Origin: Minisyncoccota bacterium
GTDB taxonomy: Bacteria > Patescibacteriota > Minisyncoccia > Phycocordibacterales > PALSA-1337
Assembly (NCBI GenBank): GCA_041662725.1
Contig: JBAZRX010000007.1
Location: 1 to 53,150 of the forward strand
DNA length: 53,150 bases
Direction: 5' to 3'
The first letter of the stretch is position 1, and every line of letters starts with the position of its first letter. The notes beneath the pieces were generated by a model. That model saw only the letters and a program-made list of their open reading frames with translations, ran no database searches and had not been told where the DNA came from. Below, piece by piece: positions 28,168 to 48,560 of the stretch. Position numbers and translations under genes: made by a program.

Positions 28168-29033
28168 AAACTTTCTCTTTGTACAATGTATGTTGGCCTC
28201 CACGGAGTCCGTAAATGAATTGCACCAAAACTAATAGCTTTAGCACCAAGTTTTCTAACCCGATCAAGGTCATCAATTTCCATAACGCTCGGTCCAATAA
28301 CTGGAAGTACTCCTTGTCTGGACAATTCTTCTACAGCTTTCCAATTGCATTTCTGTGCAGGTTTACCAGACACACCACCACCTCCACCACCAACTTTTTC
28401 TTCAAGTTTCCATAGAGGAGTCTTTTCTCCATTCGGAAAAGCTGTTTTCCACGGAACACTATTCAGAGATATTGCTTCTGCAATATTTTTAAGCCCATTA
28501 GCAATGGTTAAATAGTCTTGATCAACAGAAACTTTTACAATAATCGGATAACGTGAAGCATGTTTGACCGCCTTCACACTATTTATGACAGCTTCAGCTG
28601 TTTGCATTGCGTGACCGGTATTCGGACACGATGGGTTAACTTCCAGAGCTACAAGCTCAAAAGAATTGAGCATGTATGCCATTTCAGTTAATTCCTTCTC
28701 GTCACCGAAAATTGATCCAACAAGAGGAAACTTGAGAAAATCTAAATGTGGGCCAATTTCTTTGCACCACCATTCAATACCTGGATTAGTTAGTCCAACC
28801 TTGTTAACCGAACCTCCGGGGATAAGACGAACACATGTCCAAGGTTTCCACCATCGCAGATTCCCTGGTCGTGGATGACGTGTCAAAGTTTTAATAACAA
28901 CCGTAAAAAGTTCTGGCTTTATAATACCAAGCCATGCAAGCGGTTTTTCCCAAAACCAACCTTTACCATCAAAAGCTAATGCCCCACTTGCGACCATGTA
29001 TTCGAAAGCATGGTCATTTGAAAAAGTAATCAT
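28164..29033 (-). CDS. pyrD: Dihydroorotate dehydrogenase (family 1-like)
   Basis: NKVGLTNPG, EVNPSCPN, PIIVKVS, GGVSG; lies in an operon with pyrC/pyrB. Confidence 0.82.
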   Translation of the reverse strand: MITFSNDHAFEYMVASGALAFDGKGWFWEKPLAWLGIIKPELFTVVIKTLTRHPRPGNLRWWKPWTCVRLIPGGSVNKVGLTNPGIEWWCKEIGPHLDFLKFPLVGSIFGDEKELTEMAYMLNSFELVALEVNPSCPNTGHAMQTAEAVINSVKAVKHASRYPIIVKVSVDQDYLTIANGLKNIAEAISLNSVPWKTAFPNGEKTPLWKLEEKVGGGGGGVSGKPAQKCNWKAVEELSRQGVLPVIGPSVMEIDDLDRVRKLGAKAISFGAIHLRTPWRPTYIVQRESL

Positions 29034-33892: not shown

Positions 33893-34196
33893 ACACGAAA
33901 GTATATCAGGTTAGAACTGAAAAGTCTTTGCGACACTTAAATATTTTCGCGAAATCTAACGCTGGGGTCACGACAGGTATCCATTTATGACGGTCCTTTG
34001 TGACCACGAATATTTGTGCGGAATACGAGAAAAGATAAGGCTTATTCAGGAGTTTCAGAGGGATGAAAAAGTGGCTGCGGTTTGAGCAAAAAAGTGACAA
34101 CTTTCGCGAATTTCAATCCTAACGATATTTTCGTACATAAAAATTCCTCACCGCGCTTTCGCAGTGAGGATGTGAAAACTTTGGCATTTTGATAGC

Positions 34197-35309
34197 TCAG
34201 CGGAGCGCCAGTGTTTCGCCGGCGTACTCCAAGCCCTTCGGCTTGATGACCACCTTCTTGTCGCCGTTTTCGATGTGACCGGCACGATAAGCCCGCAGTC
34301 CGAGCTTTTTCGCGACATGAACGACGGCATCAGCATGGGAATCAAGAACATAGAGAGCAAAGCCAGCTCCCATGTTGAGATTGCCGTAGGCCTCGGTGTC
34401 ATCGACCGGTCCATGCTCCTGCAGGAAGTCGAAGATCGGGAGCTGTGTTGGGAGGGTTTCGATCACGTATGTGAAAGGCTGCGTTGCTCGCATCAGCTTG
34501 CGCCAGCCATGGCCTGTGACGTTCACAGCGTAATGAACATCGACGCTCTGATTGAGGCAGTCCTCGACGAGACCGACATAAATGTGTGTCGGATCGAGAA
34601 GTGTTTCACCGTAGGTGCGGATACCGACCTTTGTTAGATAGCCCATCGGCAATTTGTCCGCGATCTTCCGCGCCAGCGTAAGTCCGTTCGCATGAATGCC
34701 GGAACTCTCGATGATGACGATCGCATCGCCGTGCCGAATCTTGTCGCTTGTGATCAGGCGTTCCTTGGGCTTGACGAGTCCCATCGCCGAACCGGAGAGC
34801 ACTACCGCTTCCGGGACCACAACACCTTTGAGGGTTGGCGTTTCGCCTCCTCCCCAAACGCACCGAGCCATGTCGCAGGCATTCTTCCAACCATTCACGA
34901 GGTCATGTGTGCGCTTCTCGTCATTGAACCAATCGGATGCGCCGACTGCGAGATGCATCGCCACCGAAAGCGGCAGAGCACCGAGAGTTACGAGATCATT
35001 CACGATCATGGCGACTGTGTCCTGCGCGATCTGGTCGTAATACGATTTGCCGGTGAGCTTGTACATCGCATCGGCGACCAGATTCTTTGTGCCAAGGCCT
35101 TCCTCGACATGGGCAAAGTAGCTTTTGGCCGCTTCGATGAGATAGGCGCTTTCGCCACGGCTCGCCTCGAGTTCCCGAAACTCACCGCCATTGAGGCGAC
35201 TGATATTACCGGCTGTTTCCCGTCCGGCAATCTGTGCCATCCGTTTGAATGGGTCCATAGCGTCATAGTTAACGCCGGTGCCCGCATAGGTCATATTCTG
35301 TTTTTTCAT
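34197..35309 (-). CDS. purM: Phosphoribosylformylglycinamidine cyclo-ligase (AIR synthetase)
   Basis: YAGTGVNY, EGLGTK, AMIVNDL, GGETP, SSGIHANG, NVTGHG, LNMGAG. Confidence 0.93.
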   Translation of the reverse strand: MKKQNMTYAGTGVNYDAMDPFKRMAQIAGRETAGNISRLNGGEFRELEASRGESAYLIEAAKSYFAHVEEGLGTKNLVADAMYKLTGKSYYDQIAQDTVAMIVNDLVTLGALPLSVAMHLAVGASDWFNDEKRTHDLVNGWKNACDMARCVWGGGETPTLKGVVVPEAVVLSGSAMGLVKPKERLITSDKIRHGDAIVIIESSGIHANGLTLARKIADKLPMGYLTKVGIRTYGETLLDPTHIYVGLVEDCLNQSVDVHYAVNVTGHGWRKLMRATQPFTYVIETLPTQLPIFDFLQEHGPVDDTEAYGNLNMGAGFALYVLDSHADAVVHVAKKLGLRAYRAGHIENGDKKVVIKPKGLEYAGETLALR

Positions 35310-35437
35310 GAATTTTCCTTTTGTTGAACTAGTTCTAATTGAATACTACCCATAGGTATTGAAAACGCAAGCCAGATTGACAATATCCCGAAAACGACTA
35401 GTCTTTAATTCCAGACAACGAAAGGAAAAATTGATCT

Positions 35438-37039
35438 ATGAAAACAATGAAAACTGCGTTGATCTCGGTGTACCACAAAGACGGTATCACTGATTTCGCG
35501 CTTGAACTGACTAAACTCGGATTCACCATATATGCCTCTGGCGGCACAGCCAAGCATCTCACAAAGGCCGGCATCAACGTCCTCGACGTCGCGACCCTAA
35601 TTGGCGGCGAGGCAATTCTCGGGCACCGGGTTGTTACCCTCTCCCGTGAAGTGCACGCCGGACTTTTAGCCCGCTATGATGTCCCAGAAGACATGGCTGA
35701 GCTTGAACGCCTCAATATTCCGTGCATCGATCTCGTGTGCGTTGACCTCTATCCGCTCGAACAGGAGATCGTCAAACCGGACAGCACGGAATCGTCAGTC
35801 ATCGAAATGACCGACATCGGCGGACCGACCATGATCCGTTCTGCGGCAAAAGGTTGCCGCGTCATCGTTTGTGATCCGGCAGACCGCCAGCCTGTAATCG
35901 AATGGCTGAAATCGGGTGAACAAAAGGACCCAGGCCTCCCCGGCAGATTATGCGCAAAAGCCGAATTCGTCGTTGCGAACTACTGCATGGCATCTGCTAC
36001 ATACCGTAGCGCAGGATGGTATCGCGGCCTTTCCGGTGAACGTGTCGCGGAATGCAAATACGGCGAAAACGCCCACCAAACACCGGCTGCGTTGTTCTCT
36101 TCGGGTATCGACGATCCGCTGGCGCTCGACAAATTCACTGTGGTTGAAGGTACGCCTCCCAGCTACAACAACTACTGCGATTTGGACCGGCTCCTGCAAA
36201 CAATGACGCATATCGTGGCCGTCTTGAGAAAAAACGACACTGAAGTTCCCTTCATCGCCTTGGGCGGCAAACACGGTAACGTCTGCGGCGCCGCCATAGG
36301 CAATGACGTCCGAGTTGTCCTCCAAGATATGATGGCTGGCGATCCGTTAGCGATCTTTGGCGGTTTGGTCATGACCAATTTCGCCATCGATGACGGGATC
36401 GCTGATGTTCTGTCGGGCAAGCTTCTCGACGGCATCATTGCTCCAGGGTTCACTGGCGACACAATCGCCAAACTCAGGCGTAAGGGCGACAAATGTCGCT
36501 TCATCTCAAATCCTGCACTCCGTTTGCAGGGCGCTGTTGACGGAAAAATGTCTCTCGACGGAGCTTCCCGCTTTCGTTATGTGAGAGGTGGATTCCTACG
36601 CCAGCCAAATTACACATTCGTGCTTGACCTCAAAGATGGGGGATGGAAAACCTACGGACAACCGTCTCTGCAAGGACTAACCGATATGTTCTTGGCTTGG
36701 GCGATCGGCAGCACGAGTAACAGCAACACGATCACGCTCGTAAAGAATAATACACTGATCGGCAACGGTGTCGGCCAACAAGATCGTGTCGGTGCAGCCA
36801 AACTGGCGATTGAGAGGGCGACTCGCTCAAAACACGACATCAACGGTGCCGTAGCCTACAGCGATTCGTTCTTCCCGTTCCCTGACGGTCCGCAGACCCT
36901 TATCGACGCCGGAGTCAAAGCAATCCTGACCTCAAGCGGCTCGGTCAAAGATCAGGCGACAATCGACGTCTGTGTCAAAAACAATGTCGCGTTGTATATG
37001 ATCCCCGATCCCATCGGGCGAGGTTTCTTCGGTCATTAA
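35438..37039 (+). CDS. purH: Bifunctional IMP cyclohydrolase/AICAR formyltransferase
   Basis: ALISVYHK, GHRVVTL, DIGGPTMIRSAAK, YGENAHQ, SYNN, KHGNVCG, SDSFFPF. Confidence 0.94.
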   Translation: MKTMKTALISVYHKDGITDFALELTKLGFTIYASGGTAKHLTKAGINVLDVATLIGGEAILGHRVVTLSREVHAGLLARYDVPEDMAELERLNIPCIDLVCVDLYPLEQEIVKPDSTESSVIEMTDIGGPTMIRSAAKGCRVIVCDPADRQPVIEWLKSGEQKDPGLPGRLCAKAEFVVANYCMASATYRSAGWYRGLSGERVAECKYGENAHQTPAALFSSGIDDPLALDKFTVVEGTPPSYNNYCDLDRLLQTMTHIVAVLRKNDTEVPFIALGGKHGNVCGAAIGNDVRVVLQDMMAGDPLAIFGGLVMTNFAIDDGIADVLSGKLLDGIIAPGFTGDTIAKLRRKGDKCRFISNPALRLQGAVDGKMSLDGASRFRYVRGGFLRQPNYTFVLDLKDGGWKTYGQPSLQGLTDMFLAWAIGSTSNSNTITLVKNNTLIGNGVGQQDRVGAAKLAIERATRSKHDINGAVAYSDSFFPFPDGPQTLIDAGVKAILTSSGSVKDQATIDVCVKNNVALYMIPDPIGRGFFGH

Positions 37040-37058
37040 ATTGACCCCGCCATTCACG

Positions 37059-37092
37059 TGCCACTCCCCTCAAGGGTGTGGCACTTTTTTAT
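37059..37092. terminator. Terminator between convergent purH and purB
   Basis: GTGCCAC..GTGGCAC stem followed by TTTTT. Confidence 0.6.
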
Positions 37093-37151
37093 TGCACAAA
37101 AAAGACTCACCCTGCTTTCACAAAGTGAGTCTACTGAATCTGCGTTGGCGA

Positions 37152-38678
37152 TCAGACACCGAGAAACGATGCCATGACTGCCGGAGCGGCCAGATACCCC
37201 TCGGCAATCTTGGCAATCTCCAGCGCTTTCTCAGCTGCCAGACCGGCATACTGGTCGGAATTGCCGCCGACCTTGCTGATAAGCGACATGACATCTTCCG
37301 GTAGTTTCGAACGGCCATCCAGTAATTCCTGATCGTGCTCATCTTCACCGATCTTTTTGATGGTATACAACCAGGAACTGCCTTGCTTGACGAGTGGAAG
37401 TGCTAGCTCATTAACAACCCTATGAGCGTCTCCTGTGTAGCCGGCCATCTGAAGTGCGATATACACCGGCTCAGCAAGTATCTCCGCACCCTGAAGCTCC
37501 AGATTGCGCTTGCAAGCTTCCGGATCAACCGAGATCCGCGCAATGAACGGCGAGTCGCCGCGCAAGAGGGTGTTCAACTGTGAGACCAGATTCACAACGA
37601 TTGTCGGAAAATCCCGAGCGATAGCGCTGTTCACCAAGTCCCGTTGATGCTCGCTTATGAGCACGTCCATGACCTTGCCGAATTCGCTCTTGGTCTTCAG
37701 CCATGTGCTCTCAAGGTTCTCGAAGTTGATCGGGTTCCTCTTGTGCGCCATGGTTGATGAGCCGACTTGGCCTTTGTCGAATGGTTCACCGAGCTCTGCG
37801 ATTTCGCTTCGCATGAGATGTCGGCCATCCCGACCGAATTGACCGAGAGAAGCCGATAGCTTCACACAAGCAAACAGATAATCGGCGAGTGGCTCAGGTG
37901 GCAGAATCTGGGTACTGATTGGCGCGGGTTTTAATCCAAGCCTTTTCAGTACCAACTGCTCGAATGTTGGGACATCCGCGTAATTGGCAACACCTGATGC
38001 AACGTCTTCCGCAGAACACGCACCAATCCCCTTTGATTTGCATCGTTCGATAATCCCGACTGCTTTCTGTGCGTTGTACGCGCCGACCGCGCCGGAGATC
38101 TTTCCCACGAGCCCATAGGCTGCTGCATTGGCACTCTCGAGATTCCGGAGAATCCTGCTCAAGATCGTGGCAAACCAGAAACCGACCGTGATTGGCAGCG
38201 CATGCTGGCCATGCGTACGACCGATCTGCTTCTGTGAGGCGAATGTCCGGGTCCGCTCAATGAAATGCCCGATGACCTTGTCCGCCAAAGGCTTGACGAC
38301 CTCGGTGTGAGCGCGGAGGAATTGAAGCGACCGCGCCGTATCGAGAACGTCATAGCTTGTGAGCGGAACATGAATCCATCGGCGAAGGCCGAGGGGTGAA
38401 CGCTCTTGAGCCAAGCGAACCCAGGCACGGATGTCGTGTTTGGTAATCTTTCGCTCAACTTCATCAACTTCGCTCGTTGTGATAGAGAGAAGTTTTTGTT
38501 CGACTTCCGGCGTGAGAAGAACGATGTCGGCGGGAGGAATAACTCCGATGTCCGCCAACGTCCTCATGGTTGCGATTTCTACTTCGGCCACACACCTGAA
38601 AAGGTTGTCGTAGCCGAAATGCCCTTGTAGGTCTTTCGGTTGATACCGGGGGTTGCCCGGCAATGATAAGTTAGGCAT
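37152..38678 (-). CDS. purB: Adenylosuccinate lyase
   Basis: TKHD, LTSYD, GRTHGQHA, GSSTMAHKRNP signature, HQRDL. Confidence 0.93.
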   Translation of the reverse strand: MPNLSLPGNPRYQPKDLQGHFGYDNLFRCVAEVEIATMRTLADIGVIPPADIVLLTPEVEQKLLSITTSEVDEVERKITKHDIRAWVRLAQERSPLGLRRWIHVPLTSYDVLDTARSLQFLRAHTEVVKPLADKVIGHFIERTRTFASQKQIGRTHGQHALPITVGFWFATILSRILRNLESANAAAYGLVGKISGAVGAYNAQKAVGIIERCKSKGIGACSAEDVASGVANYADVPTFEQLVLKRLGLKPAPISTQILPPEPLADYLFACVKLSASLGQFGRDGRHLMRSEIAELGEPFDKGQVGSSTMAHKRNPINFENLESTWLKTKSEFGKVMDVLISEHQRDLVNSAIARDFPTIVVNLVSQLNTLLRGDSPFIARISVDPEACKRNLELQGAEILAEPVYIALQMAGYTGDAHRVVNELALPLVKQGSSWLYTIKKIGEDEHDQELLDGRSKLPEDVMSLISKVGGNSDQYAGLAAEKALEIAKIAEGYLAAPAVMASFLGV

Positions 38679-38801
38679 ATGTGGCCCTTTCTATTGTTTT
38701 TTGTTTTCTGCACTTCTCGTGTCAATACTACTCAAAAGTATCGAAAAGGCAACAAAAAAACTCCGGGAGGTGTGACCCGGAGCGTGTAACTAAACGTGCT
38801 G

Positions 38802-40109
38802 TCACCAACTCATACCTGTCAGACGTTTCTCCTGGTCAAAGCGCAAGGCGGCATAGATGCTCGGATTGCGGATAGCCAGGATTTGCAGCGCCGCAAGCAC
38901 GGCATTCCCCGGCTCAAGGACCGTCATGGCCGGCACATTGCTCGGTGTCCGCAGTGATGACCAGACGTCTTCAGGGAATTCCTTGTACCCCGCAGGAACA
39001 GTGATAACCGGAACTGTTGAGTTCGCCGCCAAGGTGGGACCAGCACCGTTGCTTCGGCCGACATACGCGATGATCACGCTGTCGCACGGCTCTTCCTGCA
39101 AGTGTTGTTGCAACAGCTTGTATGCCAGCACCGGTTGCTTGTGAATGGAACAGGTGATCGGCAACAGTTGAAACTGCGGCTTTGGTTCCAATTTCATGAC
39201 CAGCTCTTCGACGGCCGTGAAGTGATCCTTATCGGAGCCGCACCAGACGATGAGACGCTGTGACGGGACCGTAAAGCGGTCCGTTAGTTCCGCAACTTCC
39301 CGATACTTGGTCGTAACCGTGTCGAGGTCACCACCGTCGCGATACACCTGCTTGTCGATGTAACCGCCGGAATGATCTACCACCCGCCATGAATCATTGT
39401 CGATGACGTCGGCCAGCCGGAGCTTACCTTCGGTATTGATGCCGAACTCGACCTTGAAGTCCACGAGCTTGCGCCCTTGGAGCTGCCATGCCTTCTCGAG
39501 GACCAGGAATGTCTGACGGGCGATGTCGCCCATTTGCTCGATGAGTTTCTGCTCATCGGGCTGAGTGAAGACCTGCGTCTCCGGCAAAGCCAGAAACGGC
39601 ATTGACGGCTTCTGGGCGAGGTTCGGTTGCTTGGGATCGTAAAGAAGAACCTGGGCGCCGTCGGCATCGTGAATCATGAGGGGATCGTCGCAGATGAGTG
39701 CGCTTTCCTTCCATTTCTTGCCGCTCGTCTTCAGATAGAACTCGAGGACCAACCTGGGAAAAACCTGCCCTTTCATGAGATGCGGTGCCCGCTTGAGATA
39801 CGATCCATGGGCTTCGCGCCGGACCACCACCTCATACGGCAACATGACGCATTTATCGGCAAGGAATTCGGTGGCTCCGTCCTGGCTTTCGAACGCTACG
39901 GGTATGTCACATGCCCGGAGGAGCCGGAACACGTTACAGGTCGTGCGTGTGGCCAAGGCGGCCTTGCCGTTGATGATGTCGTGCTTGGCACCGTCACCGG
40001 CCGTGATGTCGTCTTTTGATTCAATCCTGACTCTGGCAGGACTTCCCGGAATGGAGAAGATTCGTTTGGTCTTCCCCTCGTTCATTGGCTGAACTTCAGT
40101 CGTTTGCAT
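38802..40109 (-). CDS. purCE: Bifunctional SAICAR synthetase/AIR carboxylase (PurC-PurE, PAICS-type)
   Basis: EGKTK, SKDDITAGDG, GSYLKR, LVDFKVEFG, DVIDNDSWR; C-terminal GS.KD, SIHK, GRSNGAGP; probable ATG at 40109 with SD. Confidence 0.92.
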   Translation of the reverse strand: MQTTEVQPMNEGKTKRIFSIPGSPARVRIESKDDITAGDGAKHDIINGKAALATRTTCNVFRLLRACDIPVAFESQDGATEFLADKCVMLPYEVVVRREAHGSYLKRAPHLMKGQVFPRLVLEFYLKTSGKKWKESALICDDPLMIHDADGAQVLLYDPKQPNLAQKPSMPFLALPETQVFTQPDEQKLIEQMGDIARQTFLVLEKAWQLQGRKLVDFKVEFGINTEGKLRLADVIDNDSWRVVDHSGGYIDKQVYRDGGDLDTVTTKYREVAELTDRFTVPSQRLIVWCGSDKDHFTAVEELVMKLEPKPQFQLLPITCSIHKQPVLAYKLLQQHLQEEPCDSVIIAYVGRSNGAGPTLAANSTVPVITVPAGYKEFPEDVWSSLRTPSNVPAMTVLEPGNAVLAALQILAIRNPSIYAALRFDQEKRLTGMSW

Positions 40110-40163
40110 ATGTATTTTCCTTTCTTTGTACATTGGGAAGAATTCCCAAACCTGAGTCAAAAA

Positions 40164-42332
40164 CTACTCCTGGAGCAAGGGTAAGTCAAGATGGCGAATC
40201 TCCGCCTCAATCTTTTTATAATATCTTTCCCGTTGTTTGTATTGCCTCTCCAGAAATAGAATCTCTTTATCCCTATAGTCAACAATAGTTTTCTGAACAC
40301 CTCTGCCTCGCATCCGGCCGATATACTGCAGCAACTTTCCTTCAAACGAAAATGGAAATGCCAATATCAGGCAATTGATCCCCTTGATATCTAGCCCTTC
40401 TCCGAAAAATTGTCCCGTTGATAAGATAACCTTGTAGTGGCCGCCTTCGATCTGTTTGATTTTGGATGTCCGCGACGCAGCAGAATCATTCCCTGAAATA
40501 ATAATGGTCTCCAACTTGCCCTTGAGATACAGATTCAGAATTTCCAAATGATCTTTACGCTCACTCAAAACAAGCACTTGTTTACCCAATTCCACCTGTT
40601 TGAAAATATCATCCACTATCATCCTGTTGCGAGTCGTATCGAAGCAGATAATTTTGGCTAGCAATTGGAATTGATCTGTTGTGAATTTAAACGGAATACT
40701 CAAAGTCGTCGTTCGTATAATAATTTCAATGACTACCTCGACGCTTGGCACAATCGATACGAAGTCAGACATTTCCATACGGGAAATGATGTCGCCAATA
40801 AACGCATAGATTAACTTTTCATCATTATGCTTTCTTTGAGGAGTGGCGGTCAGCCCATAGATGTACTTCGGATTGAGTTGTGAGATAACCTCACGGAATG
40901 TTGATGCTGGTATGTGATGGCATTCATCAACAATGATCGTGCCGAACTGATTTTTCATATCTGATAAATCCTTCTTCCGGCCGAGACTCTGGAGTAATCC
41001 GACTGTAATCTGTTTCCCCACTTTTTTCTTGCCGCTTGAATATTGCCCGATATGAGTCTTGGCGATTCCAAGGAATGCCTGGATGCGCTCAACCCATTGA
41101 TCCAGGAGTTGCTTGCGATGGACTAGAATAAGTGCCGGTAATTTCTTTCTAGCTATAAGTTCCAAACCGATAATCGTCTTGCCACTGCCGGACGGTGCCA
41201 CGATTACGCCTTGGTCATGAGGCATGACATCTTGAATCGTTGAGATCTGAGGCAGGGTCAACTCGATCGAGCTCTTGAATAAAGTCTCCTCCACAACCGG
41301 ATGTTCAAAGCGGACCGAATATTTAATCCTGTGTTCCTCGAGAAAGTCTGTCAGTACATGCAGGAAACCGCGAGGTAGAAAAATGTTGTCGCCAGATTCT
41401 TCAACCAGCTTAAAATATTTCTCGACTTGATAGACGGATTTGCCGAGTCTGCGCTTTGTCAGGTATTCCGTATTAATGAAATTCAACTCCTCTTTCAAGA
41501 AATGGATGAGCTCAGGAACTAGCCCTGACCGCGGCATAACAATTTTATTGCTAACCAAAATATTAAGCTTCCCTGATCTCTTCGTCTCATGAAACTCTTT
41601 CCGTTCTTCCGAAAACAAAGCATTGTATACCTCATCCAATTCTACAGCTAAATGTCGTCTAATCTCACTCAAATACTCCCATTGATCAGAAAAAGCCTTG
41701 TCCGTTGTTAGATCAATGAAAACAGTGTTACCTTTCCGGACCGCCTTACTCTGAAACGGTAGCGCTATCAGATTTCCAAAACCATTCTTTGTCAGACTAT
41801 CTTGATTCGGAAAAAGCCGGTCGAAACTGACTTCTTTTTCGAATTCGGAAACATTTCGTATGCGGCGGATTATCTCAAGTCCAATCTGCCGGCTCTTATA
41901 ACATGGGTACGGTTCCGAGAAGAAAATCCAAACATGTCCGCCATTGCCGGACCGTGAACGTTCAAGATAAGCCGACAATCCAATTGCCGAGCACTGATCG
42001 ATGAATGCGCGTGATTCTTCCTTCCAATTTTCACCGTCAAAATCCGCAGCAAGAAAATGTGAAGTATTATCTTGCAAAATTGGATACACCCCAATGACAT
42101 GCTGACCGACCAAGTGTCCACGAATCACATCTTCAGTGAGAGGTATCAACCGCTTGTTCTCGAAATCCTTGAGTGTTCCGCCCCGGCGTTTGAACTCCAT
42201 GAATTCAGTCCAGTTGAATTCATACGCCGGCGCGTATCCCGATCGTCCATCTTTCTCCCAATGACGCGCATAAACATCGGCTCTTCCCCGAAATAGGGTC
42301 ATAAACAATTCGAGTTGTTGATCCTCTGTCAT
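40164..42332 (-). CDS. TOTE-type archaeo-eukaryotic primase fused to an SF2 (DEAD/DEAH-like) helicase
   Basis: FRGRADVYA, AADFD, ERSRSGNGGHVWIFF, LFPNQD, GNLIALP; APSGSGKT, DECHH, TATP, QYIGR. Confidence 0.85.
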   Translation of the reverse strand: MTEDQQLELFMTLFRGRADVYARHWEKDGRSGYAPAYEFNWTEFMEFKRRGGTLKDFENKRLIPLTEDVIRGHLVGQHVIGVYPILQDNTSHFLAADFDGENWKEESRAFIDQCSAIGLSAYLERSRSGNGGHVWIFFSEPYPCYKSRQIGLEIIRRIRNVSEFEKEVSFDRLFPNQDSLTKNGFGNLIALPFQSKAVRKGNTVFIDLTTDKAFSDQWEYLSEIRRHLAVELDEVYNALFSEERKEFHETKRSGKLNILVSNKIVMPRSGLVPELIHFLKEELNFINTEYLTKRRLGKSVYQVEKYFKLVEESGDNIFLPRGFLHVLTDFLEEHRIKYSVRFEHPVVEETLFKSSIELTLPQISTIQDVMPHDQGVIVAPSGSGKTIIGLELIARKKLPALILVHRKQLLDQWVERIQAFLGIAKTHIGQYSSGKKKVGKQITVGLLQSLGRKKDLSDMKNQFGTIIVDECHHIPASTFREVISQLNPKYIYGLTATPQRKHNDEKLIYAFIGDIISRMEMSDFVSIVPSVEVVIEIIIRTTTLSIPFKFTTDQFQLLAKIICFDTTRNRMIVDDIFKQVELGKQVLVLSERKDHLEILNLYLKGKLETIIISGNDSAASRTSKIKQIEGGHYKVILSTGQFFGEGLDIKGINCLILAFPFSFEGKLLQYIGRMRGRGVQKTIVDYRDKEILFLERQYKQRERYYKKIEAEIRHLDLPLLQE

Positions 42333-42582
42333 AACAATATGAGCCTACTACACCTCGCTAATTACCTCAATCGGCATTCATGCGACCGTAATCGCCGCCT
42401 TCTTGCCACCTGTTCGCCCCAGTGTGCGCTTTTCTGGCGCAAGTAAGGCATTTCCACGACTTCGGGCATGATTCGGGAGCGTGTGCCCGATTTCGAGGAA
42501 GTTAGTAGTCCGATTCAAAGATTAGTGAATCTATGCCGGATTTAACCTAAATTCACGCGAAAATTGCAAAGTTGCGTGAATA

Positions 42583-43098
42583 TTACTTCCTCTTCGGTCT
42601 TTCCCCTTTCAGTAACCTATCAAATGCCTCGAGATTACCCAAAGCATCATGGACAGGATTATGGTCATGCTTTGTTATACGCAAATGCTTCCAAGAGGAC
42701 GAGTCCATAAAATCTCCCGTAAGGCCGGCATAGAAATCACCAATTCTCCGCGCAGAATATCCGAACGGATTCCGGCCGAGAGTTCTCCAGAAGCTGTCAT
42801 TGATCCACTGCCAATCGAATGCAGGATTGTCGCTGACGAATTTCGGACGCTCTCCGCCGGTCATATCTGCGAGCCACTTCTCAAATTTCTCAAAAACCTC
42901 CTTCTCATCGAATACCTTTCCAGTATAAACACGAGTGGTCGGATTCTCGTCTGACCGATGGCCTTCGATGATGACACCATGGAATGTCGCCCTCGACGGA
43001 TATGCAACGGCGCCAAATTCCGTGAGCTTCCCCCTGCTCGGACATTTGCCATTGGCTTCGCAGTCAATGAAAATCAGGTTTTTGACTTCTATGCTCAT
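42583..43098 (-). CDS. DEDDh 3'-5' exonuclease (Cap18-like)
   Basis: FIDCE, AFDWQW, GRNPFG, HNPVHDA; begins 4 nt downstream of the CD-NTase. Confidence 0.85.
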   Translation of the reverse strand: MSIEVKNLIFIDCEANGKCPSRGKLTEFGAVAYPSRATFHGVIIEGHRSDENPTTRVYTGKVFDEKEVFEKFEKWLADMTGGERPKFVSDNPAFDWQWINDSFWRTLGRNPFGYSARRIGDFYAGLTGDFMDSSSWKHLRITKHDHNPVHDALGNLEAFDRLLKGERPKRK

Positions 43099-43102
43099 AA
43101 TT

Positions 43103-43870
43103 TTACCAAATAGCTTGATTCCAATTCCCTGCTAATGTTGTCTTGGCTAATTCTTTGACTTTAAGTTTTTCCGCAGCAGTTAATTCATCGGACACCTCAT
43201 TCTCTTGGTTTGCCGGATCTTTGATTGTCTTATTTTCAAAATCATTCACCAAATAATTCATTACTGTTATAAAGTTCGAAGAAGGACTAGAATTTATCAA
43301 GCCGCCCTCTTTCAAGGCTTCAATAACAGAAAGTTCAAGATAGAATGAAGGGAAATCCAATTTGTGAATCTTTCTCCAGATCTTTACAGCCTTGATATCA
43401 GGTATCCTGCCAGAGTTTTTCACATGATTTATATGCGCATCAATATTTGTCTTCGTCCAAGTCTGTGCCTTTCTTTTCCAGATTGAATGATCGAGCCCAA
43501 ACATTTGGTGCCGGACACCAGCAACGACATCAACTTTTAATCCTGTGTGGTCAATGCCTAAAGACACATTCTGCTCCCGCGCTGAATAGCCAGCTCCGTT
43601 AAATCTATTCCTCAGTGTGTTGTATACATTCTCAAGCGTGTTGCATGTACTCACCGATGGATCCAGAGATATAAATAAATCAATGTCGGTCGTGCCAGTT
43701 ATACCTGTCCCCTTTGCTAGCGAACCTGAAAGTTTCAGTGTATACGCGTGGCCATTTGCCCACGCATGGATGTGTGGCTTTAATTCATTGATCTTGTCTG
43801 CCACAATATAGGTAACATTCGGAGTATGCGCGGTAACAACATTCCGTATGTATTGATCGTTCTCGTTCAT
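43103..43870 (-). CDS. cGAS/DncV-like nucleotidyltransferase (CD-NTase)
   Basis: SGSLAKGT..DIDLF, REQNVS, VDVV, KIWR, FPSFYLEL, IKDPAN. Confidence 0.88.
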   Translation of the reverse strand: MNENDQYIRNVVTAHTPNVTYIVADKINELKPHIHAWANGHAYTLKLSGSLAKGTGITGTTDIDLFISLDPSVSTCNTLENVYNTLRNRFNGAGYSAREQNVSLGIDHTGLKVDVVAGVRHQMFGLDHSIWKRKAQTWTKTNIDAHINHVKNSGRIPDIKAVKIWRKIHKLDFPSFYLELSVIEALKEGGLINSSPSSNFITVMNYLVNDFENKTIKDPANQENEVSDELTAAEKLKVKELAKTTLAGNWNQAIW

Positions 43871-43871
43871 T

Positions 43872-44378
43872 TTATGATTCGTAGCTAGTCGTGATCATAG
43901 CGGTCACGATATCGTTTAATAAGCGCCCGCGGAAATTGGTTACAGCTGTGTGTCTTTTGCCATCAAGATTTTTCATCTGGTCATCGGGAATTCTACCCTT
44001 CTCGTACGGAGCGTACACAACGAGAGCACAGGCATCGGGTTTTTTCGAAAGAATCTCATCGATACTGTCCGACCAGTCCTGCCAAAAAACGAGGTATATA
44101 GATGCCTCTTCGGCTTTTCCAATATCGCTGACATTCTTTATTTCAAAAACATTCTTTGCACGAAAAAGCTTTGAATCTAATAGAAGGCTTCTCAAACTGC
44201 CTGCATTATCCCCTTTAGCAAATACTGCGATCTTTCGCCTTGCGAGTCCATTACCGAGACGAAATAACGCTGGTGAAATACCACGTACCCAGAGAACGGT
44301 TCCCCACACAATACCAACCAGAAGAATAATCGTCTCAATTATCCCGACATACGCTATAATCTGTAAAAATAAGGCCAT
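43872..44378 (-). CDS. Putative CBASS effector: N-terminal TM plus a Rossmann-like (NARF-like) domain
   Basis: Hydrophobic residues ~3-32; alpha/beta domain ending NFRGRLLNDI; 1-nt gap to the CD-NTase. Confidence 0.65.
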   Translation of the reverse strand: MALFLQIIAYVGIIETIILLVGIVWGTVLWVRGISPALFRLGNGLARRKIAVFAKGDNAGSLRSLLLDSKLFRAKNVFEIKNVSDIGKAEEASIYLVFWQDWSDSIDEILSKKPDACALVVYAPYEKGRIPDDQMKNLDGKRHTAVTNFRGRLLNDIVTAMITTSYES

Positions 44379-44392
44379 AATAATTTATTAAC

Positions 44393-44420
44393 TGTAAACT
44401 TGTTTAGGTTATGTTTAGGT
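44393..44420. promoter_or_regulatory. Candidate operator in the divergent CBASS/lexA intergenic region
   Basis: TAAAC-TT-GTTTA palindrome and TGTTTAGGT direct repeats at 44401 and 44412. Confidence 0.4.
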
Positions 44421-44428
44421 AGTATACT

Positions 44429-45061
44429 ATGACCATGAAAATAAAGTCAAGCATGGGTATCGGCAAACCATCAAAGCGACAAGCCGAGATACTTCACTTT
44501 GCGAGGGAGTACCGGAGAGAAAACGGCTACTCCCCTTCTTTGGTGGAGATGGCAAAACATTTTGGTATTTCTATACCCACGATTCACCAGCATGTCCATT
44601 CACTTCAAGATAAGAACCTTCTTACGATCGAAAAAGGCAAGAAGCGTTCAATCCAAGCGCTTCATAACCACAGATTACCTGGCGTCGAAATACCCCTTAT
44701 GGGATATATTGCAGCAGGAGGTCCAATCGAGGCAATCCGGGAACCAGAACCAATCGAAGTCCCCCGAAGCATGTTAACTTCTGGCTTCAATCACTACGCT
44801 TTGAAAGTCACCGGGCGGAGCATGATCGAGGAAGGCATCTCGGACGGCGACATTGTCATAGTCCGTGACCAACCAACGGTCGATGATGGGGAAAAAGCTG
44901 TCGCATATATGCCTGATAGAAACGAGGTCACCCTCAAAAAGATTTATCGAGAAAGAAATCGCATCAAATTGGTGCCTGCAAATAAATTTATGAAGCCATT
45001 TTATGAGACGAATGTCGAAATACAAGGTAAGGTCGTAGGAGTTCTTAGGAAAGAATCTTAA
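44429..45061 (+). CDS. lexA: LexA-family repressor
   Basis: wHTH (RQAEIL..GYSPS..EMA), IAAG cleavage site, GRSM catalytic Ser, TLKK catalytic Lys. Confidence 0.9.
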   Translation: MTMKIKSSMGIGKPSKRQAEILHFAREYRRENGYSPSLVEMAKHFGISIPTIHQHVHSLQDKNLLTIEKGKKRSIQALHNHRLPGVEIPLMGYIAAGGPIEAIREPEPIEVPRSMLTSGFNHYALKVTGRSMIEEGISDGDIVIVRDQPTVDDGEKAVAYMPDRNEVTLKKIYRERNRIKLVPANKFMKPFYETNVEIQGKVVGVLRKES

Positions 45062-45081
45062 TCAGTGATAAAATAAATTAT

Positions 45082-46656
45082 ATGCCATTAGTATCCATAC
45101 CAGAAGCATCAAAGTGGGCGTCAGATTATCTCGAGAAAGAGGTAACGCCGGCAAACATCTCGTACTTGGTACAGTATGGGAAGGTTAAAAAGCATGGCGA
45201 AAATGGTTCGACCATGATTGATTCCCATGATCTCAAAAATTACTACAAATCTTCACAAGGTAAACGCGAGGTGAGCTGGAAAAAACACCTCGGGAATGAT
45301 CTGAATTGGGCATTATCATTTGATCATCTTCGAGAAAAGGACACGACCAAACACGTCCACCGCCTTCACCCTTACAAAGGAAAATATATTCCCCAGCTTG
45401 TTCAATATTTCATCGACGACCACACTGACGACTTCAAGAAGCAGACCTACTTTAAACCAGGTGACATCATTCTTGATCCATTCCTAGGGTCCGGTACTAC
45501 ACTTATTCAATCGCTGGAAATGGGTATTCACTCAATAGGGATGGATGTCTCTGAATTCAACTGCATGATTGCCAGCTGCAAGGCTACACATTACGATCAC
45601 GAATATCTACAGAAGGCTATCAAGAAAATGTTAGCCGCCCTCGATTCATTCGAGCATGATAATAAGGTGCAGGATTTCGAAAATGAGCTCCTAGCAGAGC
45701 TAGCAAAATTCAATAACAAATATTTCCCAGGTTATGAATTTAAGTACCAGATGAATCAAAATAATATGGACGAGAGCTCTATTGCAACTGAAAAGCAAAA
45801 GGAATTCCTGCCTATATACCAGAAGTTGCTTAAGAAATATTCCATAAAGCTCAAACAGAATGTTTCTGACTCTTTTCTTGATATCTGGTTTATGGACAAT
45901 GTCCGCAGCGAGATTGACCACGTATTCAAAGCTGTAAAAAATGAGAAGGATGTGAAGGTTAGGAAGCTCCTTGCATTAATTCTGAGCAGAACAATCAGAT
46001 CATGCAGGGCAACCACACATAGCGATCTTGCCACCCTCAAAGAACCTCAGCTGACGACTTATTATTGCTTTAAGCATAAGAAGATTTGCAAACCGTTGTT
46101 TTCGATAAAGACGATGCTCAATCGCTATGCTTTTGACACTATGAGCCGAGTAAAAGAATTCGACCAGCTACGCAAGCCGGTGCACTACTCCGCTATTGCT
46201 GGAGACTCCAGAGCTGTAAACATTTTTGACAAGGTTGAAAAACAGAACCCTGAATTTTCAAAAATCCTTAAGAAACAGAAGATTGCCGGAATATTCTGTT
46301 CCCCGCCATATGTCGGCCAAATCGATTATCATGAGCAACATGCCTATGCCTATGATTTACTTGGATTCAAGCGAAAAGATGAACTCGAGATAGGACCGCT
46401 CCAAAATGGCCAAGGACTTGAAGCTCGACGAGCGTATGTCCAAGGCATTGCTGATGTACTAAACAACTGCAGAAAGTATTTCACAGACAATCCGGATGTA
46501 TTCTTGGTCGCTAATGACAAGTATAATCTTTACCCTGAAATCGCCGAAAAATCAGGAATGAAGATAGTAAATCAATTTAAGCGGCCGGTCTTAAATCGAA
46601 CTGAGCGCGATCGTACCCCTTATTCAGAAATAATATTCCACTTAAAATTAAAATAA
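45082..46656 (+). CDS. Amino (probably N4-cytosine) DNA methyltransferase with an N-terminal HTH-like extension
   Basis: HPYKGKY, DPFLGSGTT (motif I) preceding SPPY (motif IV). Confidence 0.9.
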   Translation: MPLVSIPEASKWASDYLEKEVTPANISYLVQYGKVKKHGENGSTMIDSHDLKNYYKSSQGKREVSWKKHLGNDLNWALSFDHLREKDTTKHVHRLHPYKGKYIPQLVQYFIDDHTDDFKKQTYFKPGDIILDPFLGSGTTLIQSLEMGIHSIGMDVSEFNCMIASCKATHYDHEYLQKAIKKMLAALDSFEHDNKVQDFENELLAELAKFNNKYFPGYEFKYQMNQNNMDESSIATEKQKEFLPIYQKLLKKYSIKLKQNVSDSFLDIWFMDNVRSEIDHVFKAVKNEKDVKVRKLLALILSRTIRSCRATTHSDLATLKEPQLTTYYCFKHKKICKPLFSIKTMLNRYAFDTMSRVKEFDQLRKPVHYSAIAGDSRAVNIFDKVEKQNPEFSKILKKQKIAGIFCSPPYVGQIDYHEQHAYAYDLLGFKRKDELEIGPLQNGQGLEARRAYVQGIADVLNNCRKYFTDNPDVFLVANDKYNLYPEIAEKSGMKIVNQFKRPVLNRTERDRTPYSEIIFHLKLK

Positions 46657-46657
46657 T

Positions 46658-47440
46658 ATGGCTCTATCAAAAGAACAAGTCAAAGCAGTCGAGGATACCT
46701 TGAAGCTCAGTCTCCGTAATAAATTTCAGAATTATAATCCTGAGCCGGCGTCGATGCCTTTCCATACACGTCTTCTTGGAAAAGACCGTCTGGCTCTTTA
46801 CGCCTTTATCCATTCGCTCAACACCAACTTCGGTAGCAGTATCTTCGAGCCGGTCGGTCTTACCCTCGCTCAAAAGAATTTCAAGATGGCCACGGCACAA
46901 GCTACGGCTGGTGAGCAGATCAGTACTGGCGCCCAAGCAGAAATTCAAAAGATCATTGATGGCCTTACAACCGCCACAACTACTCCAAACAAGAAAGACG
47001 AGGTCGAAAGGATACGAAAGGTCTGCCAAACCGGAAAAATGATCACGGTAAAACCTACGAAGGTTGATCTAATGTTTGAAGGAAAGGATGGTTCGTATTA
47101 CCTCTTTGATATTAAGACTGCAAAACCAAATGCTGGTGACTTTAAAGAATTCAAACGTACGTTGCTCGAATGGGTAGCTGTTATCTTGGCTAACAAGCCC
47201 GATGCGAAAATACATACCTTTATCGCCATTCCCTATAACCCATACGAGCCAGAACCATATACTCGATGGACAATGCGCGGCATGCTTGATCTTGAAAACG
47301 AGCTCAAGGTAGCGGATGAATTCTGGGATTTCCTAGGGGGTAAAAATACCTACAAAGACCTGCTTGATTGCTTTGAGCGCGTCGGTATTGAGCTACGAGA
47401 TGAAATTGACACTTATTTCAAGCGTTTCAATAAGAAATAG
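46658..47440 (+). CDS. Type II restriction endonuclease (TdeIII-like)
   Basis: HSLNTNFG..FE, VDL..DIKTAKPN (PD-D/ExK), PYNPY, FWDFL; 1 nt after the MTase. Confidence 0.85.
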   Translation: MALSKEQVKAVEDTLKLSLRNKFQNYNPEPASMPFHTRLLGKDRLALYAFIHSLNTNFGSSIFEPVGLTLAQKNFKMATAQATAGEQISTGAQAEIQKIIDGLTTATTTPNKKDEVERIRKVCQTGKMITVKPTKVDLMFEGKDGSYYLFDIKTAKPNAGDFKEFKRTLLEWVAVILANKPDAKIHTFIAIPYNPYEPEPYTRWTMRGMLDLENELKVADEFWDFLGGKNTYKDLLDCFERVGIELRDEIDTYFKRFNKK

Positions 47441-47443
47441 CCG

Positions 47444-47517
47444 AATGTAAACAAAGTAGGCATGTATGTTTACATCTTACGCACCAATGTAAACAAACTA
47501 GCATTTTCCTTTACATT
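47444..47517. promoter_or_regulatory. Two ATGTAAA(CA) inverted-repeat sites
   Basis: AATGTAAACAAA at 47444 and 47486; inverted TGTTTACAT at 47467 and TTTACATT at 47510. Confidence 0.5.
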
Positions 47518-48559: not shown

Positions 48560-48560
48560 C

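What the first reader, a model, noticed from the sequence alone, without database searches (positions are those of the whole stretch)
34197..42332. Late-purine-pathway block (purM, purH, purB, purCE) abutting the defence island, without purF/D/N/L
Seen: a four-gene block that is visibly more GC-rich than the backbone and has clear SD sites. The island helicase stops only about 55 nt upstream of the PAICS start, in the same orientation. The block covers FGAM to IMP only. Known: most CPR lack de novo nucleotide synthesis. Inference: this is horizontally acquired metabolic cargo, possibly carried by the tRNA-His element. If the early genes are absent genome-wide, the cell would finish purine synthesis from intermediates taken from its host.
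Basis: partly seen in the sequence, partly recalled or inferred. Interest (0 to 1): 0.68.

Follow-up and report, generated by a model that had tools for sequence, protein, structure and literature searches.

The report
Foreign late-purine gene block beside island
A small groundwater CPR bacterium carries four real, GC-rich genes for the second half of purine synthesis; they were recently swapped in from relatives by recombination and were not brought by the neighbouring tRNA-His defence island, and whether the first half of the pathway exists elsewhere in the genome could not be settled.

Summary
The block is real but the coordinates are wrong. The pur genes span 34197-40109: purM(-), purH(+, opposite strand), purB(-), and a PAICS-type purC-purE fusion(-). 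The stretch 40164-42332 is a TOTE primase-helicase, not a pur gene.

The block has 54% GC (GC3 0.60-0.69) against a 36% backbone (GC3 0.20-0.30). Each gene has its own SD, promoter-like element and terminator. With a class II PurE, the set covers FGAM to IMP without PurK.

Horizontal acquisition is strongly supported. Backbone synonymous divergence from relatives is saturated, while pur genes give dS 0.15-1.7. About 1.35 kb in two tracts within 36801-38450 is 98-100% identical to Ca. Taylorbacteria from other aquifers. The block is a recombination mosaic.

"Cargo of the tRNA-His element" is not supported. Syntenic relatives keep PAICS-purB(-purH) at the same place with no island (L168) or only a decayed remnant (L009). 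Other members of this serine-recombinase family, all ending inside tRNA-His, carry defence genes and no pur genes.

purN and purL sit directly upstream of PAICS in the closest cluster (L004). No purF, purD, purN, purL or purK is in the window, and genome-wide absence could not be tested. The host-intermediate idea remains speculation.

The parts
34197..35309 (-). purM (FGAM cyclo-ligase / AIR synthetase), 370 aa
   Evidence: Pfam AIRS + AIRS_C. TIGR00878 scores 185 bits, below the 236 cut-off. All best PDB hits are PurM. dN/dS is about 0.06 against L004. GC3 is 0.65.
34145..34170 (-). GC-rich hairpin plus T-run, terminator of purM; homology to relatives' blocks ends just beyond it (34121-34127; 33964 in L009)
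35310..35437 (.). divergent purM/purH intergenic region with two SD sites (AAAAGGAAAA; GAAAGGAAAAA) and TTGACA-N16-TAGTCT / TAGTAT promoter-like elements
   Evidence: repeats D17 and I25
35438..37039 (+). purH (AICAR transformylase / IMP cyclohydrolase), 533 aa, on the opposite strand to the other three genes
   Evidence: Pfam MGS + AICARFT_IMPCHas. NF002049 scores 369 bits against a 402 cut-off. Best PDB hits are M. tuberculosis and C. jejuni PurH. 30% identity to E. coli PurH over the full length.
37103..37132 (-). hairpin plus T-run between the convergent purH and purB genes (terminator)
37152..38678 (-). purB (adenylosuccinate / SAICAR lyase), 508 aa
   Evidence: Pfam Lyase_1 + ASL_C. TIGR00928 scores 264 bits against a 326 cut-off. 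Best PDB hit is B. subtilis ASL.
36801..38450 (.). two tracts 98-100% identical to the Ca. Taylorbacteria (L009) block, separated by a divergent patch at 37851-38150 (about 1.35 kb near-identical in all); the same sequence occurs in runs X4/X5, where the window's backbone is absent
38802..40109 (-). PAICS-type fusion: N-terminal SAICAR synthetase (PurC) plus C-terminal class II AIR carboxylase (PurE), 435 aa
   Evidence: Pfam SAICAR_synt + AIRC. Best PDB hits are Bombyx and human PAICS over both domains. Motifs are SIHK and GRSNGAGP, matching Bombyx SAHK/GRSNGLGP and differing from E. coli class I SAHR/GGAAHLPG. dN/dS is 0.04 against L166.
38760..38783 (-). hairpin plus T-run after PAICS (terminator)
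40110..40192 (-). conserved PAICS promoter/5'UTR: TTGACT-N17-TAGTTT, inverted repeat TTGGGAA-N3-TTCCCAA (40133-40149), SD AAAGGAAAA. Homology to five compared relatives (L001, L008, L009, L004, L168) starts at about 40168-40192, whatever lies upstream.
40164..42332 (-). TOTE archaeo-eukaryotic-primase + SF2 helicase gene (not a pur gene). It is a 2.2-kb indel (40193-42397), absent from L008. Its last 9 codons and stop are read from the conserved PAICS promoter.
   Evidence: Pfam PF22548, ResIII, Helicase_C; PADLOC PrimPol
42398..51236 (.). serine-recombinase island: exonuclease-like gene, CBASS-like cyclase + 1TM effector, LexA-like gene, type II MTase + REase, and recombinase 49661-51247(+)
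51237..51309 (-). tRNA-His(GTG); the recombinase ORF ends (G-A-stop) antisense inside its 3' acceptor strand
25965..29033 (-). context: pyrB, pyrC (E. coli-type dihydroorotase) and pyrD with near-native composition (GC3 0.27-0.35)
7803..17853 (.). context: native one-carbon/folate genes that can supply 10-formyl-THF to PurH (SHMT 7803-9035, ThyA 9312-10223, DHFR 13137-13637, FolD 16966-17853)

Best explanation
The block is a working 'late purine' module encoding steps 5-10. PurM makes AIR from FGAM. A PAICS-type enzyme carboxylates AIR directly with CO2 (class II PurE, so no PurK or ATP is needed) and ligates aspartate. PurB releases AICAR. PurH, using 10-formyl-THF from the native SHMT/FolD/DHFR genes, makes IMP.

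The module lies at a fixed chromosomal place in this family of Paceibacteria (Ca. Taylorbacteria relatives). The order is ...PduO - tRNA-His - [variable region] - PAICS - purB - (purH - purM) - ... - DsbA - VKOR - MTase - FolD - SIMPL. It is therefore flanking chromosome next to an integration hot spot, not cargo of the present serine-recombinase island.

Its foreign composition arises because pur genes in this clade behave as a shared gene pool. The window's AT-rich lineage recently received or overwrote the module, in pieces, by homologous recombination with higher-GC relatives. DNA uptake is inferred as the route. The island and then the TOTE helicase inserted right up to the module's promoter, at the position where the closest cluster carries purN and purL.

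Shown: gene identities, composition, mosaic near-identity, synteny, and island-independent occurrence. Inferred: enzymatic activity, the recombination mechanism, and that the early genes (purF, purD, purN/T, purL) lie elsewhere in the genome (about even odds).
For: Domains and structural relatives. Class II PurE motifs and no PurK; PMC3261824 states that class II PurE needs no PurK or ATP. Purifying selection, dN/dS 0.04-0.3. Own SD, promoter and terminator per gene.

Composition: GC 0.54 against 0.363 +/- 0.024, and GC3 0.60-0.69 against 0.20-0.30. Divergence: backbone dS is saturated against L001, L008, L009, L088 and L168, while pur dS is 0.15-1.7. Tracts 98-100% identical to L009 lie within 36801-38450, while other parts of the block are 60-90% identical. 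Pur-block k-mers occur in many other aquifer and sediment runs in which the backbone search listed no match.

Same locus in L008, L009 and L168 with 4, 3 and 2 pur genes respectively. L168 has tRNA-His and PAICS-purB with no recombinase. The recombinase family at tRNA-His in L172 and L174 carries defence or TA cargo only. L004 has purL-purN directly upstream of PAICS. The junction is supported by an independent contig at equal depth.
Against: The rest of the genome is unavailable, so a complete pathway is not shown. Two positions where relatives hold purN and purL (upstream of PAICS; between IleRS and ArgRS, as in L088) are empty in the window.

All four proteins score below NCBIfam's equivalog cut-offs, so they belong to divergent subfamilies with no biochemistry behind them.

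Three of the four syntenic relatives (window, L008, and L009 as a remnant) do have the recombinase island next to the block. Recombinase GC3 (0.68) and dS to L008 (0.79) resemble those of the pur genes. Co-transfer of island plus block as one recombination tract cannot be excluded, nor can an older island origin of the block.

No att repeat defines the island's distal end.
Confidence: 0.7

Rival explanations
1. The pur block is cargo of the tRNA-His integrative island: island plus block arrived together as one mobile element.
For: The island is immediately adjacent and co-oriented with the block. Both are compositionally foreign. L008 has the same recombinase (94-96% aa) and the same block with the same junction, with similar dS (0.5-1.0) for both. 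L009 carries a remnant of the recombinase next to the block. L004 has another, truncated serine recombinase just after purM.
Against: L168 has tRNA-His, PAICS and purB at the same locus with no trace of the recombinase. L001, L007, L010 and L167 carry the genes in core-gene contexts with no recombinase called within the fetched flanks. L172 and L174, the same recombinase family at tRNA-His, carry only defence or TA genes. Island interior GC3 is 0.41-0.48 against 0.60-0.69 for the pur genes. Homology among relatives always stops at the PAICS promoter (about 40168-40192) regardless of what is upstream. The mosaic inside the block fits homologous recombination, not site-specific transfer.
Confidence: 0.15
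2. The genome truly lacks purF, purD, purN and purL, and the cell completes purine synthesis from pathway intermediates (FGAM- or AIR-level compounds or their ribosides) obtained from a host.
For: No early gene is in the 53-kb window. Two positions that hold purN and purL in relatives are empty. Syntenic relatives show still shorter sets at this locus: L009 lacks purM, and L168 has only PAICS and purB. CPR are generally reported to lack nucleotide synthesis (PMC7304191 and PMC8407418).
Against: The intermediates are phosphorylated ribotides for which no uptake system is known (established biochemistry). No transporter is linked to the block. purM is intact and under purifying selection, which implies a supply of FGAM and hence PurL. 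L004 shows that the same module is normally joined to purN and purL. Pur genes in this clade are dispersed over several loci. The window also holds pyrB, pyrC, pyrD and the folate cycle, so this organism is less reduced than the CPR stereotype.
Confidence: 0.12
3. Vertical inheritance with no transfer: the pur genes are simply slow-evolving and keep a high GC content.
For: The same chromosomal locus is used in four lineages. The enzymes are conserved (about 60% identity even to Alphaproteobacteria and Verrucomicrobiota).
Against: Third-position GC of 0.6-0.7 in a genome at 0.2-0.3 cannot be held by protein-level constraint. Other conserved enzymes (IleRS, SHMT, FolD, L11, NusG) have native GC3 and saturated dS. 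A tract with 98-100% nucleotide identity sits beside tracts at 60-75%.
Confidence: 0.02
4. Assembly or binning chimera joining a GC-rich organism's pur genes to an AT-rich contig.
For: The composition steps are sharp. Logan contigs are fragmented between 37755 and 41918, where related strains co-occur.
Against: An independent contig spans 31763-37755 at the same depth as the flanks. AT-rich backbone syntenic with relatives lies on both sides (PduO - tRNA-His on the right; DsbA...SIMPL on the left). The same adjacency occurs in L008, L009 and L168.
Confidence: 0.02

Closest known systems
Animal PAICS (human 2H31/7ALE, Bombyx mori 4JA0): bifunctional SAICAR synthetase / class II AIR carboxylase
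   Same: Same domain order (PurC then PurE). The best solved-structure matches cover both domains (E 4e-61 and 3e-54). It shares the class II motifs S-x-H-K and G-R-S-N-G-x-G-P. There is no PurK partner.
   Different: It is bacterial. Identity over the aligned stretches is only moderate. No biochemistry exists for this family.
Ca. Taylorbacteria RIFCSPHIGHO2_12_FULL_45_16 locus (MHRT01000007; L009) and uncultured bin AM-2014-D8_bin-0381 (CAIMKX010000009; L008)
   Same: Same chromosomal neighbourhood (PduO - tRNA-His ... PAICS - purB - purH ... DsbA - VKOR - MTase - FolD - SIMPL). The same PAICS promoter is present. Tracts of up to 98-100% nucleotide identity are shared with L009. L008 has the same recombinase island and all four pur genes.
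   Different: The backbones are far diverged (aa identity 50-70%, dS saturated) and have higher GC (45-46%). L009 lacks purM, has only an island remnant, and has a pyrC fragment plus a UMPS-like gene upstream. L008 lacks the TOTE helicase.
Six-gene cluster purL-purN | PAICS-purB-purH-purM of an unnamed relative (L004/L005)
   Same: PAICS is 92% identical, with the same order and orientation of the four late genes and the same promoter.
   Different: It carries purN and a large purL directly upstream of PAICS, where the window has the helicase and island.
Classical bacterial pur operons (for example B. subtilis purEKBCSQLFMNHD) and class I PurE/PurK
   Same: Same pathway steps; purM, purB and purH are of bacterial type.
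   Different: Only 4 genes are present, each with its own terminator, and one is on the opposite strand. It has a class II PurE fused to PurC and no PurK. No purine or ZTP riboswitch was found.
tRNA-linked genomic islands / integration hot spots
   Same: A variable region starts at the 3' end of tRNA-His and differs in every relative. A recombinase lies next to the tRNA. L168 holds a 21-nt repeat of the tRNA 3' end.
   Different: The integrase is a large serine recombinase whose ORF ends antisense within the tRNA. The pur block is the conserved chromosomal edge of the variable region rather than island cargo.

Membership tests
PAICS-type bifunctional enzyme (SAICAR synthetase + class II AIR carboxylase) | Both domains in one polypeptide, PurC N-terminal and PurE C-terminal | tested here: met
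   Pfam SAICAR_synt at residues 26-146 and later, and AIRC at 328-445 (numbered on the 452-aa TTG-start ORF). PAICS structures match in two stretches covering both halves.
PAICS-type bifunctional enzyme (SAICAR synthetase + class II AIR carboxylase) | PurE domain of class II (direct CO2 carboxylase) rather than class I (N5-CAIR mutase) | tested here: met
   By sequence only. Motifs SIHK and GRSNGAGP align with Bombyx SAHK and GRSNGLGP, whereas E. coli class I has SAHR and GGAAHLPG. Among stand-alone PurE structures retrieved is the entry I recall as T. denticola class II PurE (3rg8). No structure that I recognise as class I reached E 1e-3.
PAICS-type bifunctional enzyme (SAICAR synthetase + class II AIR carboxylase) | No PurK requirement / enzymatic activity | not testable with these tools
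   No purK-like sequence is in the window or in any fetched locus. Activity needs an assay or complementation.
PurM, PurH, PurB (equivalogs as defined by NCBIfam) | Whole-protein score above the curated equivalog cut-off | tested here: not met
   purM 185 against 236; purH 369 against 402 (NF002049); purB 264 against 326; purC part 72 against 190; purE part 60 against 150. These are still by far the best families, and the domain architectures are complete. The proteins are divergent subfamilies, and function is inferred.
PurM, PurH, PurB (family level) | Full-length domain architecture, with best solved relatives all of that enzyme | tested here: met
Complete de novo purine pathway | purF, purD, purN or purT, purL (or purQ, purS, purL) present | tested here: not met
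   Absent from the 53-kb window. Genome-wide presence is not testable here. Laying run X1 on a relative's purM-purN-purL region gave purL-like contigs from several populations (depths 9.9-34x among those shown) that cannot be assigned.
Cargo of the tRNA-His serine-recombinase island | Lies between the element's two attachment junctions | tested here: inconclusive
   The right end is at tRNA-His (51237). No repeat of the tRNA 3' end or other att repeat marks a left end. Comparative breakpoints lie at 42398 and 40192, both to the right of the block.
Cargo of the tRNA-His serine-recombinase island | Block present only where the island is present, and island relatives carry it | tested here: not met
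   L168, L001, L007, L010 and L167 have the genes without a recombinase called nearby. L172 and L174 have the island without the genes.
Horizontally acquired DNA | Atypical composition, lower divergence from donors than the backbone, and near-identical tracts in distant genomes | tested here: met

The most novel reading that the evidence does not exclude
The organism really has only the late half of the pathway (FGAM or AIR to IMP), kept under selection and refreshed by recombination. On this reading, some Paceibacteria live on purine-pathway intermediates, or their ribosides, leaked or taken from a partner cell. That would be a metabolic hand-off at the level of pathway intermediates rather than bases or nucleosides. 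The graded sets at the same locus in relatives (4, 3 and 2 genes) would then mark different entry points.
Probability: 0.1. Interest if true: 0.8.

Novelty: new member of a known kind. Interest (0 to 1): 0.42.

Why it matters
It gives a clean, quantified example of core anabolic genes in CPR bacteria behaving as an exchangeable gene pool. Near-identical kilobase tracts are shared between genomes whose backbones are saturated with substitutions, and those genomes come from different aquifers.

It also corrects an attractive but wrong link between a metabolic block and a defence island. It shows that a eukaryote-style PAICS (class II PurE, no PurK) is the form used by these bacteria. Finally, it narrows the open question to one simple check on the full bin: whether some Paceibacteria run a truncated purine pathway.

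Tried and rejected
1. A 10-bp direct repeat (GCCAGAAAAG on the minus strand; 42429-42438 and 51059-51068), single-copy in L009, first looked like an att core with L009 as the empty site. I rejected this. The right copy encodes the invariant L-F-W of the recombinase. The 77 nt next to tRNA-His in L009 is the conserved 3' coding region of that gene. L009 therefore holds a deletion remnant, probably formed at this microhomology.

2. A search for a repeat of the tRNA-His 3' end to mark the distal island end found none.

3. I tried to test for purL and purN in the window's own population by laying metagenome contigs on relatives' purL. On L088, runs X1, X4 and X5 gave many purL- and purM-like contigs from several populations at various depths, which cannot be assigned.

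4. A search for purF and purD near pur genes in 168 fetched loci, using E. coli queries, found none. Neighbour clustering around purL found only purN and purM as recurrent neighbours.

5. An Rfam scan of 33500-42600 found no riboswitch or other RNA family at E<=1.

6. Literature searches gave only general statements that CPR often lack nucleotide synthesis. I found no report of this module or of bacterial PAICS in CPR.

7. A non-CPR donor for the block: PAICS is about 60% identical to Xanthobacteraceae and Verrucomicrobiota proteins, but those genes are stand-alone and the identities are star-like. No specific outside donor could be named.


Full report
WHAT IS THERE. The window has three composition zones. 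The first is an AT-rich backbone at 1001-34000 and 51248-53150: GC 0.363, sd 0.024 over 33 one-kb windows, GC3 of genes 0.20-0.30. The second is a GC-rich block at 34197-40160 (GC 0.54, GC3 0.60-0.69). The third is an intermediate zone at 40164-51247 (GC 0.44-0.45).

The GC-rich block holds four intact genes. They are purM 34197-35309(-), purH 35438-37039(+), purB 37152-38678(-), and a SAICAR-synthetase/AIR-carboxylase fusion at 38802-40109(-). The finding's interval also takes in 40164-42332, which is a TOTE archaeo-eukaryotic-primase + helicase protein (Pfam PF22548, ResIII, Helicase_C) and not a pur gene. purH is on the opposite strand.

Each gene has an SD-like AAAGGAAAA/AAAGGG motif, a TAGTAT/TAGTTT-type -10 element and its own hairpin plus T-run terminator. 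The genes are therefore four transcription units, not an operon. The helicase stop lies 54 nt before the PAICS ATG (40109). That ATG, not the upstream TTG, is the start conserved in relatives.

THE ENZYMES. The fusion protein's best solved relatives are insect and human PAICS over both domains (E 4e-61 and 3e-54). Its PurE half carries SIHK and GRSNGAGP. These match the PAICS motifs SAHK and GRSNGLGP and differ from E. coli class I SAHR and GGAAHLPG. Class II PurE carboxylates AIR directly and needs no PurK or ATP (PMC3261824). No purK is present. The four genes therefore cover every step from FGAM to IMP.

All four proteins fall below NCBIfam's equivalog cut-offs, so they are divergent subfamilies. 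They are nevertheless under purifying selection (dN/dS 0.04-0.3). The native backbone encodes SHMT, ThyA, DHFR and FolD, which can supply PurH's 10-formyl-THF. It also encodes pyrB, pyrC and pyrD, so this organism is less reduced than the CPR stereotype.

WHO IT IS. PAICS homologues at 66-97% identity come from Paceibacteria (Parcubacteria) CPR MAGs. These include Ca. Paceibacterota, Ca. Taylorbacteria RIFCSPHIGHO2_12_FULL_45_16 and Ca. Vogelbacteria. The next tier, at about 57-62%, is Xanthobacteraceae, Verrucomicrobiota and other CPR, where the gene stands alone. The window itself is held by one groundwater metagenome run, X1. An independent contig of that run crosses the backbone/purM junction at the same depth as the flanks, so the block is not an assembly chimera.

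HORIZONTAL ORIGIN: SUPPORTED. I compared the window with relatives that share its backbone synteny (L008, L009, L168, L088, L001). For backbone genes (IleRS, ArgRS, SHMT, FolD, DsbA, L11, NusG and others), synonymous divergence is saturated in nearly every comparison, with the lowest finite value 1.9 (FolD against L168). Amino-acid identity for these genes is 49-87%. The pur genes give dS 0.15-1.7 and 69-97% identity.

In every relative the pur genes have GC3 of about 0.55-0.7. Apart from L001 (backbone GC3 0.74-0.76), that is above the backbone GC3 (0.35-0.71). A sliding comparison with the Taylorbacteria block shows a mosaic. Identity is 98-100% over 36801-37850 and 38151-38450, 60-74% over 36201-36800, 93-97% over 35301-36200 apart from one 150-nt window at 83%, and 61-91% across PAICS.

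About 21% of the block's 31-mers occur in many aquifer and sediment runs from other studies. The backbone search listed no such runs besides X1. In runs X4 and X5 a 5.7-kb contig of the Taylorbacteria type is 97% identical over 36719-37948.

Different genes also have different nearest relatives. purB is nearest to L009, PAICS to L166 and L004, and purM to L004. This is the signature of repeated homologous recombination within a shared gene pool, not of one old transfer or of vertical descent.

CARGO OF THE tRNA-His ELEMENT: NOT SUPPORTED. The recombinase (49661-51247) is a large serine recombinase whose ORF ends (G-A-stop) antisense inside the 3' acceptor strand of tRNA-His. Homologues at 62% and 82% identity sit in exactly the same way at tRNA-His in two other genomes (L172, L174). 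Several family C-termini read GGAYRDSNP, which is the antisense translation of a tRNA T-arm. Those islands carry restriction, Abi and TA genes, and no pur genes within 10 kb.

In the window's family the chromosomal order is PduO - tRNA-His - [variable region] - PAICS - purB - (purH - purM) - ... - DsbA - VKOR - MTase - FolD - SIMPL. The relatives differ as follows.
- L168 has tRNA-His, a 21-nt repeat of its 3' end, HicAB, a two-component system, then PAICS-purB, with no trace of the recombinase.
- L009 has only a remnant of the island: 77 nt of the recombinase's conserved 3' coding region fused at a 9-10-bp microhomology to the island's distal 40 nt. This is followed by a pyrC fragment, a UMPS-like gene and PAICS-purB-purH.
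- L008 has a related island (recombinase 94-96% identical but N-terminally truncated) joined 20 nt from the PAICS promoter, and all four pur genes.
- L001 and L007 carry PAICS in core-gene contexts (TatD; trigger factor and ClpP). L010 and L167 carry purH-purB-PAICS next to LeuRS and YchF.

Homology between relatives always begins at about 40168-40192, the -35 region of a conserved PAICS promoter. It ends just past the purM terminator (34121-34127), whatever lies outside. The TOTE helicase is a separate 2.2-kb indel (40193-42397), and its last nine codons are read from that promoter.

I could not define the island's distal att site. An older island origin, or co-transfer of island plus block in one recombination tract (the window and L008 show similar dS for both), therefore cannot be excluded. 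I give the cargo idea about 0.15.

THE MISSING EARLY GENES. No purF, purD, purN/T, purL or purK is in the window. In the closest long cluster (L004/L005, PAICS 92%), purN and a 1292-aa purL lie directly upstream of PAICS, exactly where the island now sits. In L088, purM-purN-purL lies between IleRS and ArgRS, which are 63 nt apart in the window. Two known positions for these genes are therefore empty.

purF and purD were not found near any pur gene in 168 fetched loci. In this clade the pathway is evidently dispersed, and absence from one 53-kb window says little. Metagenome contigs resembling purL exist in X1 but cannot be assigned to this population.

An intact purM under purifying selection argues that FGAM, and hence PurL, is available. 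The shorter sets at the same locus in L009 (no purM) and L168 (PAICS and purB only) argue that the pathway is eroding in some lineages. I put the 'host supplies intermediates' reading at about 0.1. It is biochemically awkward because these are phosphorylated ribotides with no known uptake, but it is not excluded.

VERDICT. The horizontal-origin inference is right and is now backed by divergence and near-identity data. The link to the tRNA-His island is adjacency at a hot spot rather than carriage. The truncated-pathway idea remains open and can be settled by scanning the full bin. The enzymes and the kind of event are known. The value lies in a well-documented case of gene-pool exchange of anabolic genes among CPR bacteria and in the bacterial PAICS form.

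Noticed in passing
window 49661-51309; L172 10001-11641; L174 10001-11647: The large serine recombinase ORF ends antisense inside the 3' acceptor strand of tRNA-His. Homologues at 62% and 82% identity do the same in two other genomes. Several family C-termini read GGAYRDSNP or GAQRELNP, which is the antisense translation of a tRNA T-arm. This looks like a CPR family of tRNA-His-specific serine integrases.
   Followed up: partly
L009 7712-7820 (equivalent to window 51136-51059 and 42437-42398): The Ca. Taylorbacteria relative keeps a scar of the island: 77 nt of the recombinase's conserved 3' coding region joined at a 9-10-bp microhomology (CCAGAAAAG, which encodes the invariant L-F-W) to the island's distal 40 nt. 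At first sight this mimics an attB.
   Followed up: yes
window 40164-42397: The TOTE AEP-primase + helicase gene is a stand-alone 2.2-kb indel, absent from L008. Its last 9 codons and stop are supplied by the conserved PAICS promoter, so its C-terminus may be non-native. No partner genes of a TOTE system are adjacent.
   Followed up: partly
window 40133-40149: An inverted repeat TTGGGAA-N3-TTCCCAA lies between the PAICS -10 element and the SD. The arms are conserved in L001, L004, L008, L009 and L168, while the central 3 nt vary (TTC against TGG). It could be an operator or a 5'UTR hairpin. No Rfam family matches, and there is no second copy in the window.
   Followed up: partly
window 25965-29033; L009 7914-9819: pyrB, pyrC (E. 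coli-type dihydroorotase, missed by Pfam) and pyrD form a row with near-native composition. In the Taylorbacteria relative, a pyrC fragment and a 440-aa OPRT-like + OMP-decarboxylase (UMPS-like) fusion lie between tRNA-His and PAICS.
   Followed up: partly
window 42583-47440: The island cargo comprises an exonuclease-like effector, a CBASS-type oligonucleotide cyclase with a 1TM effector, a LexA-like repressor, and a type II methyltransferase + restriction enzyme pair.
   Followed up: partly
window 49292-49615: Iteron-like direct repeats lie just upstream of the recombinase gene: three copies of about 55 nt and two of about 35 nt. Their role (regulatory or attP-related) is unknown.
   Followed up: no
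window 191-982: A second GC-rich patch (GC 0.53, GC3 0.56) holds a 263-aa ORF with no Pfam match. The only weak similarity is to an ORF at the end of L168. It may be another recent import.
   Followed up: partly
L168 6453-6473 and 6645-6665: A 21-nt direct repeat of the tRNA-His 3' end lies 190 nt downstream of the tRNA. It is probably the att remnant of another (tyrosine-type?) element, which would confirm tRNA-His as a multi-element hot spot.
   Followed up: no
window 20520-33892: About 13 kb lies between purM and the syntenic backbone. It includes a polysaccharide deacetylase, an ArsP-like permease, a PG-binding protein, an SDR, the pyr genes, NUDIX, DUF4304 and DUF952. In L009, hyp184 and DsbA follow purH directly, so nothing corresponds to this stretch there apart from a pyrC fragment lying upstream of PAICS. 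L008 and L168 keep the deacetylase but otherwise carry different genes.
   Followed up: no
L011-L086 (genome-contig hits): PAICS-type purC-purE fusions at 57-62% identity are the stand-alone form in many Xanthobacteraceae (Pseudolabrys, Rhodoplanes), Chthoniobacterales and Akkermansiaceae, and in a Polyangiaceae MAG. This is an unusually flat identity across phyla for a family usually described as eukaryotic.
   Followed up: partly
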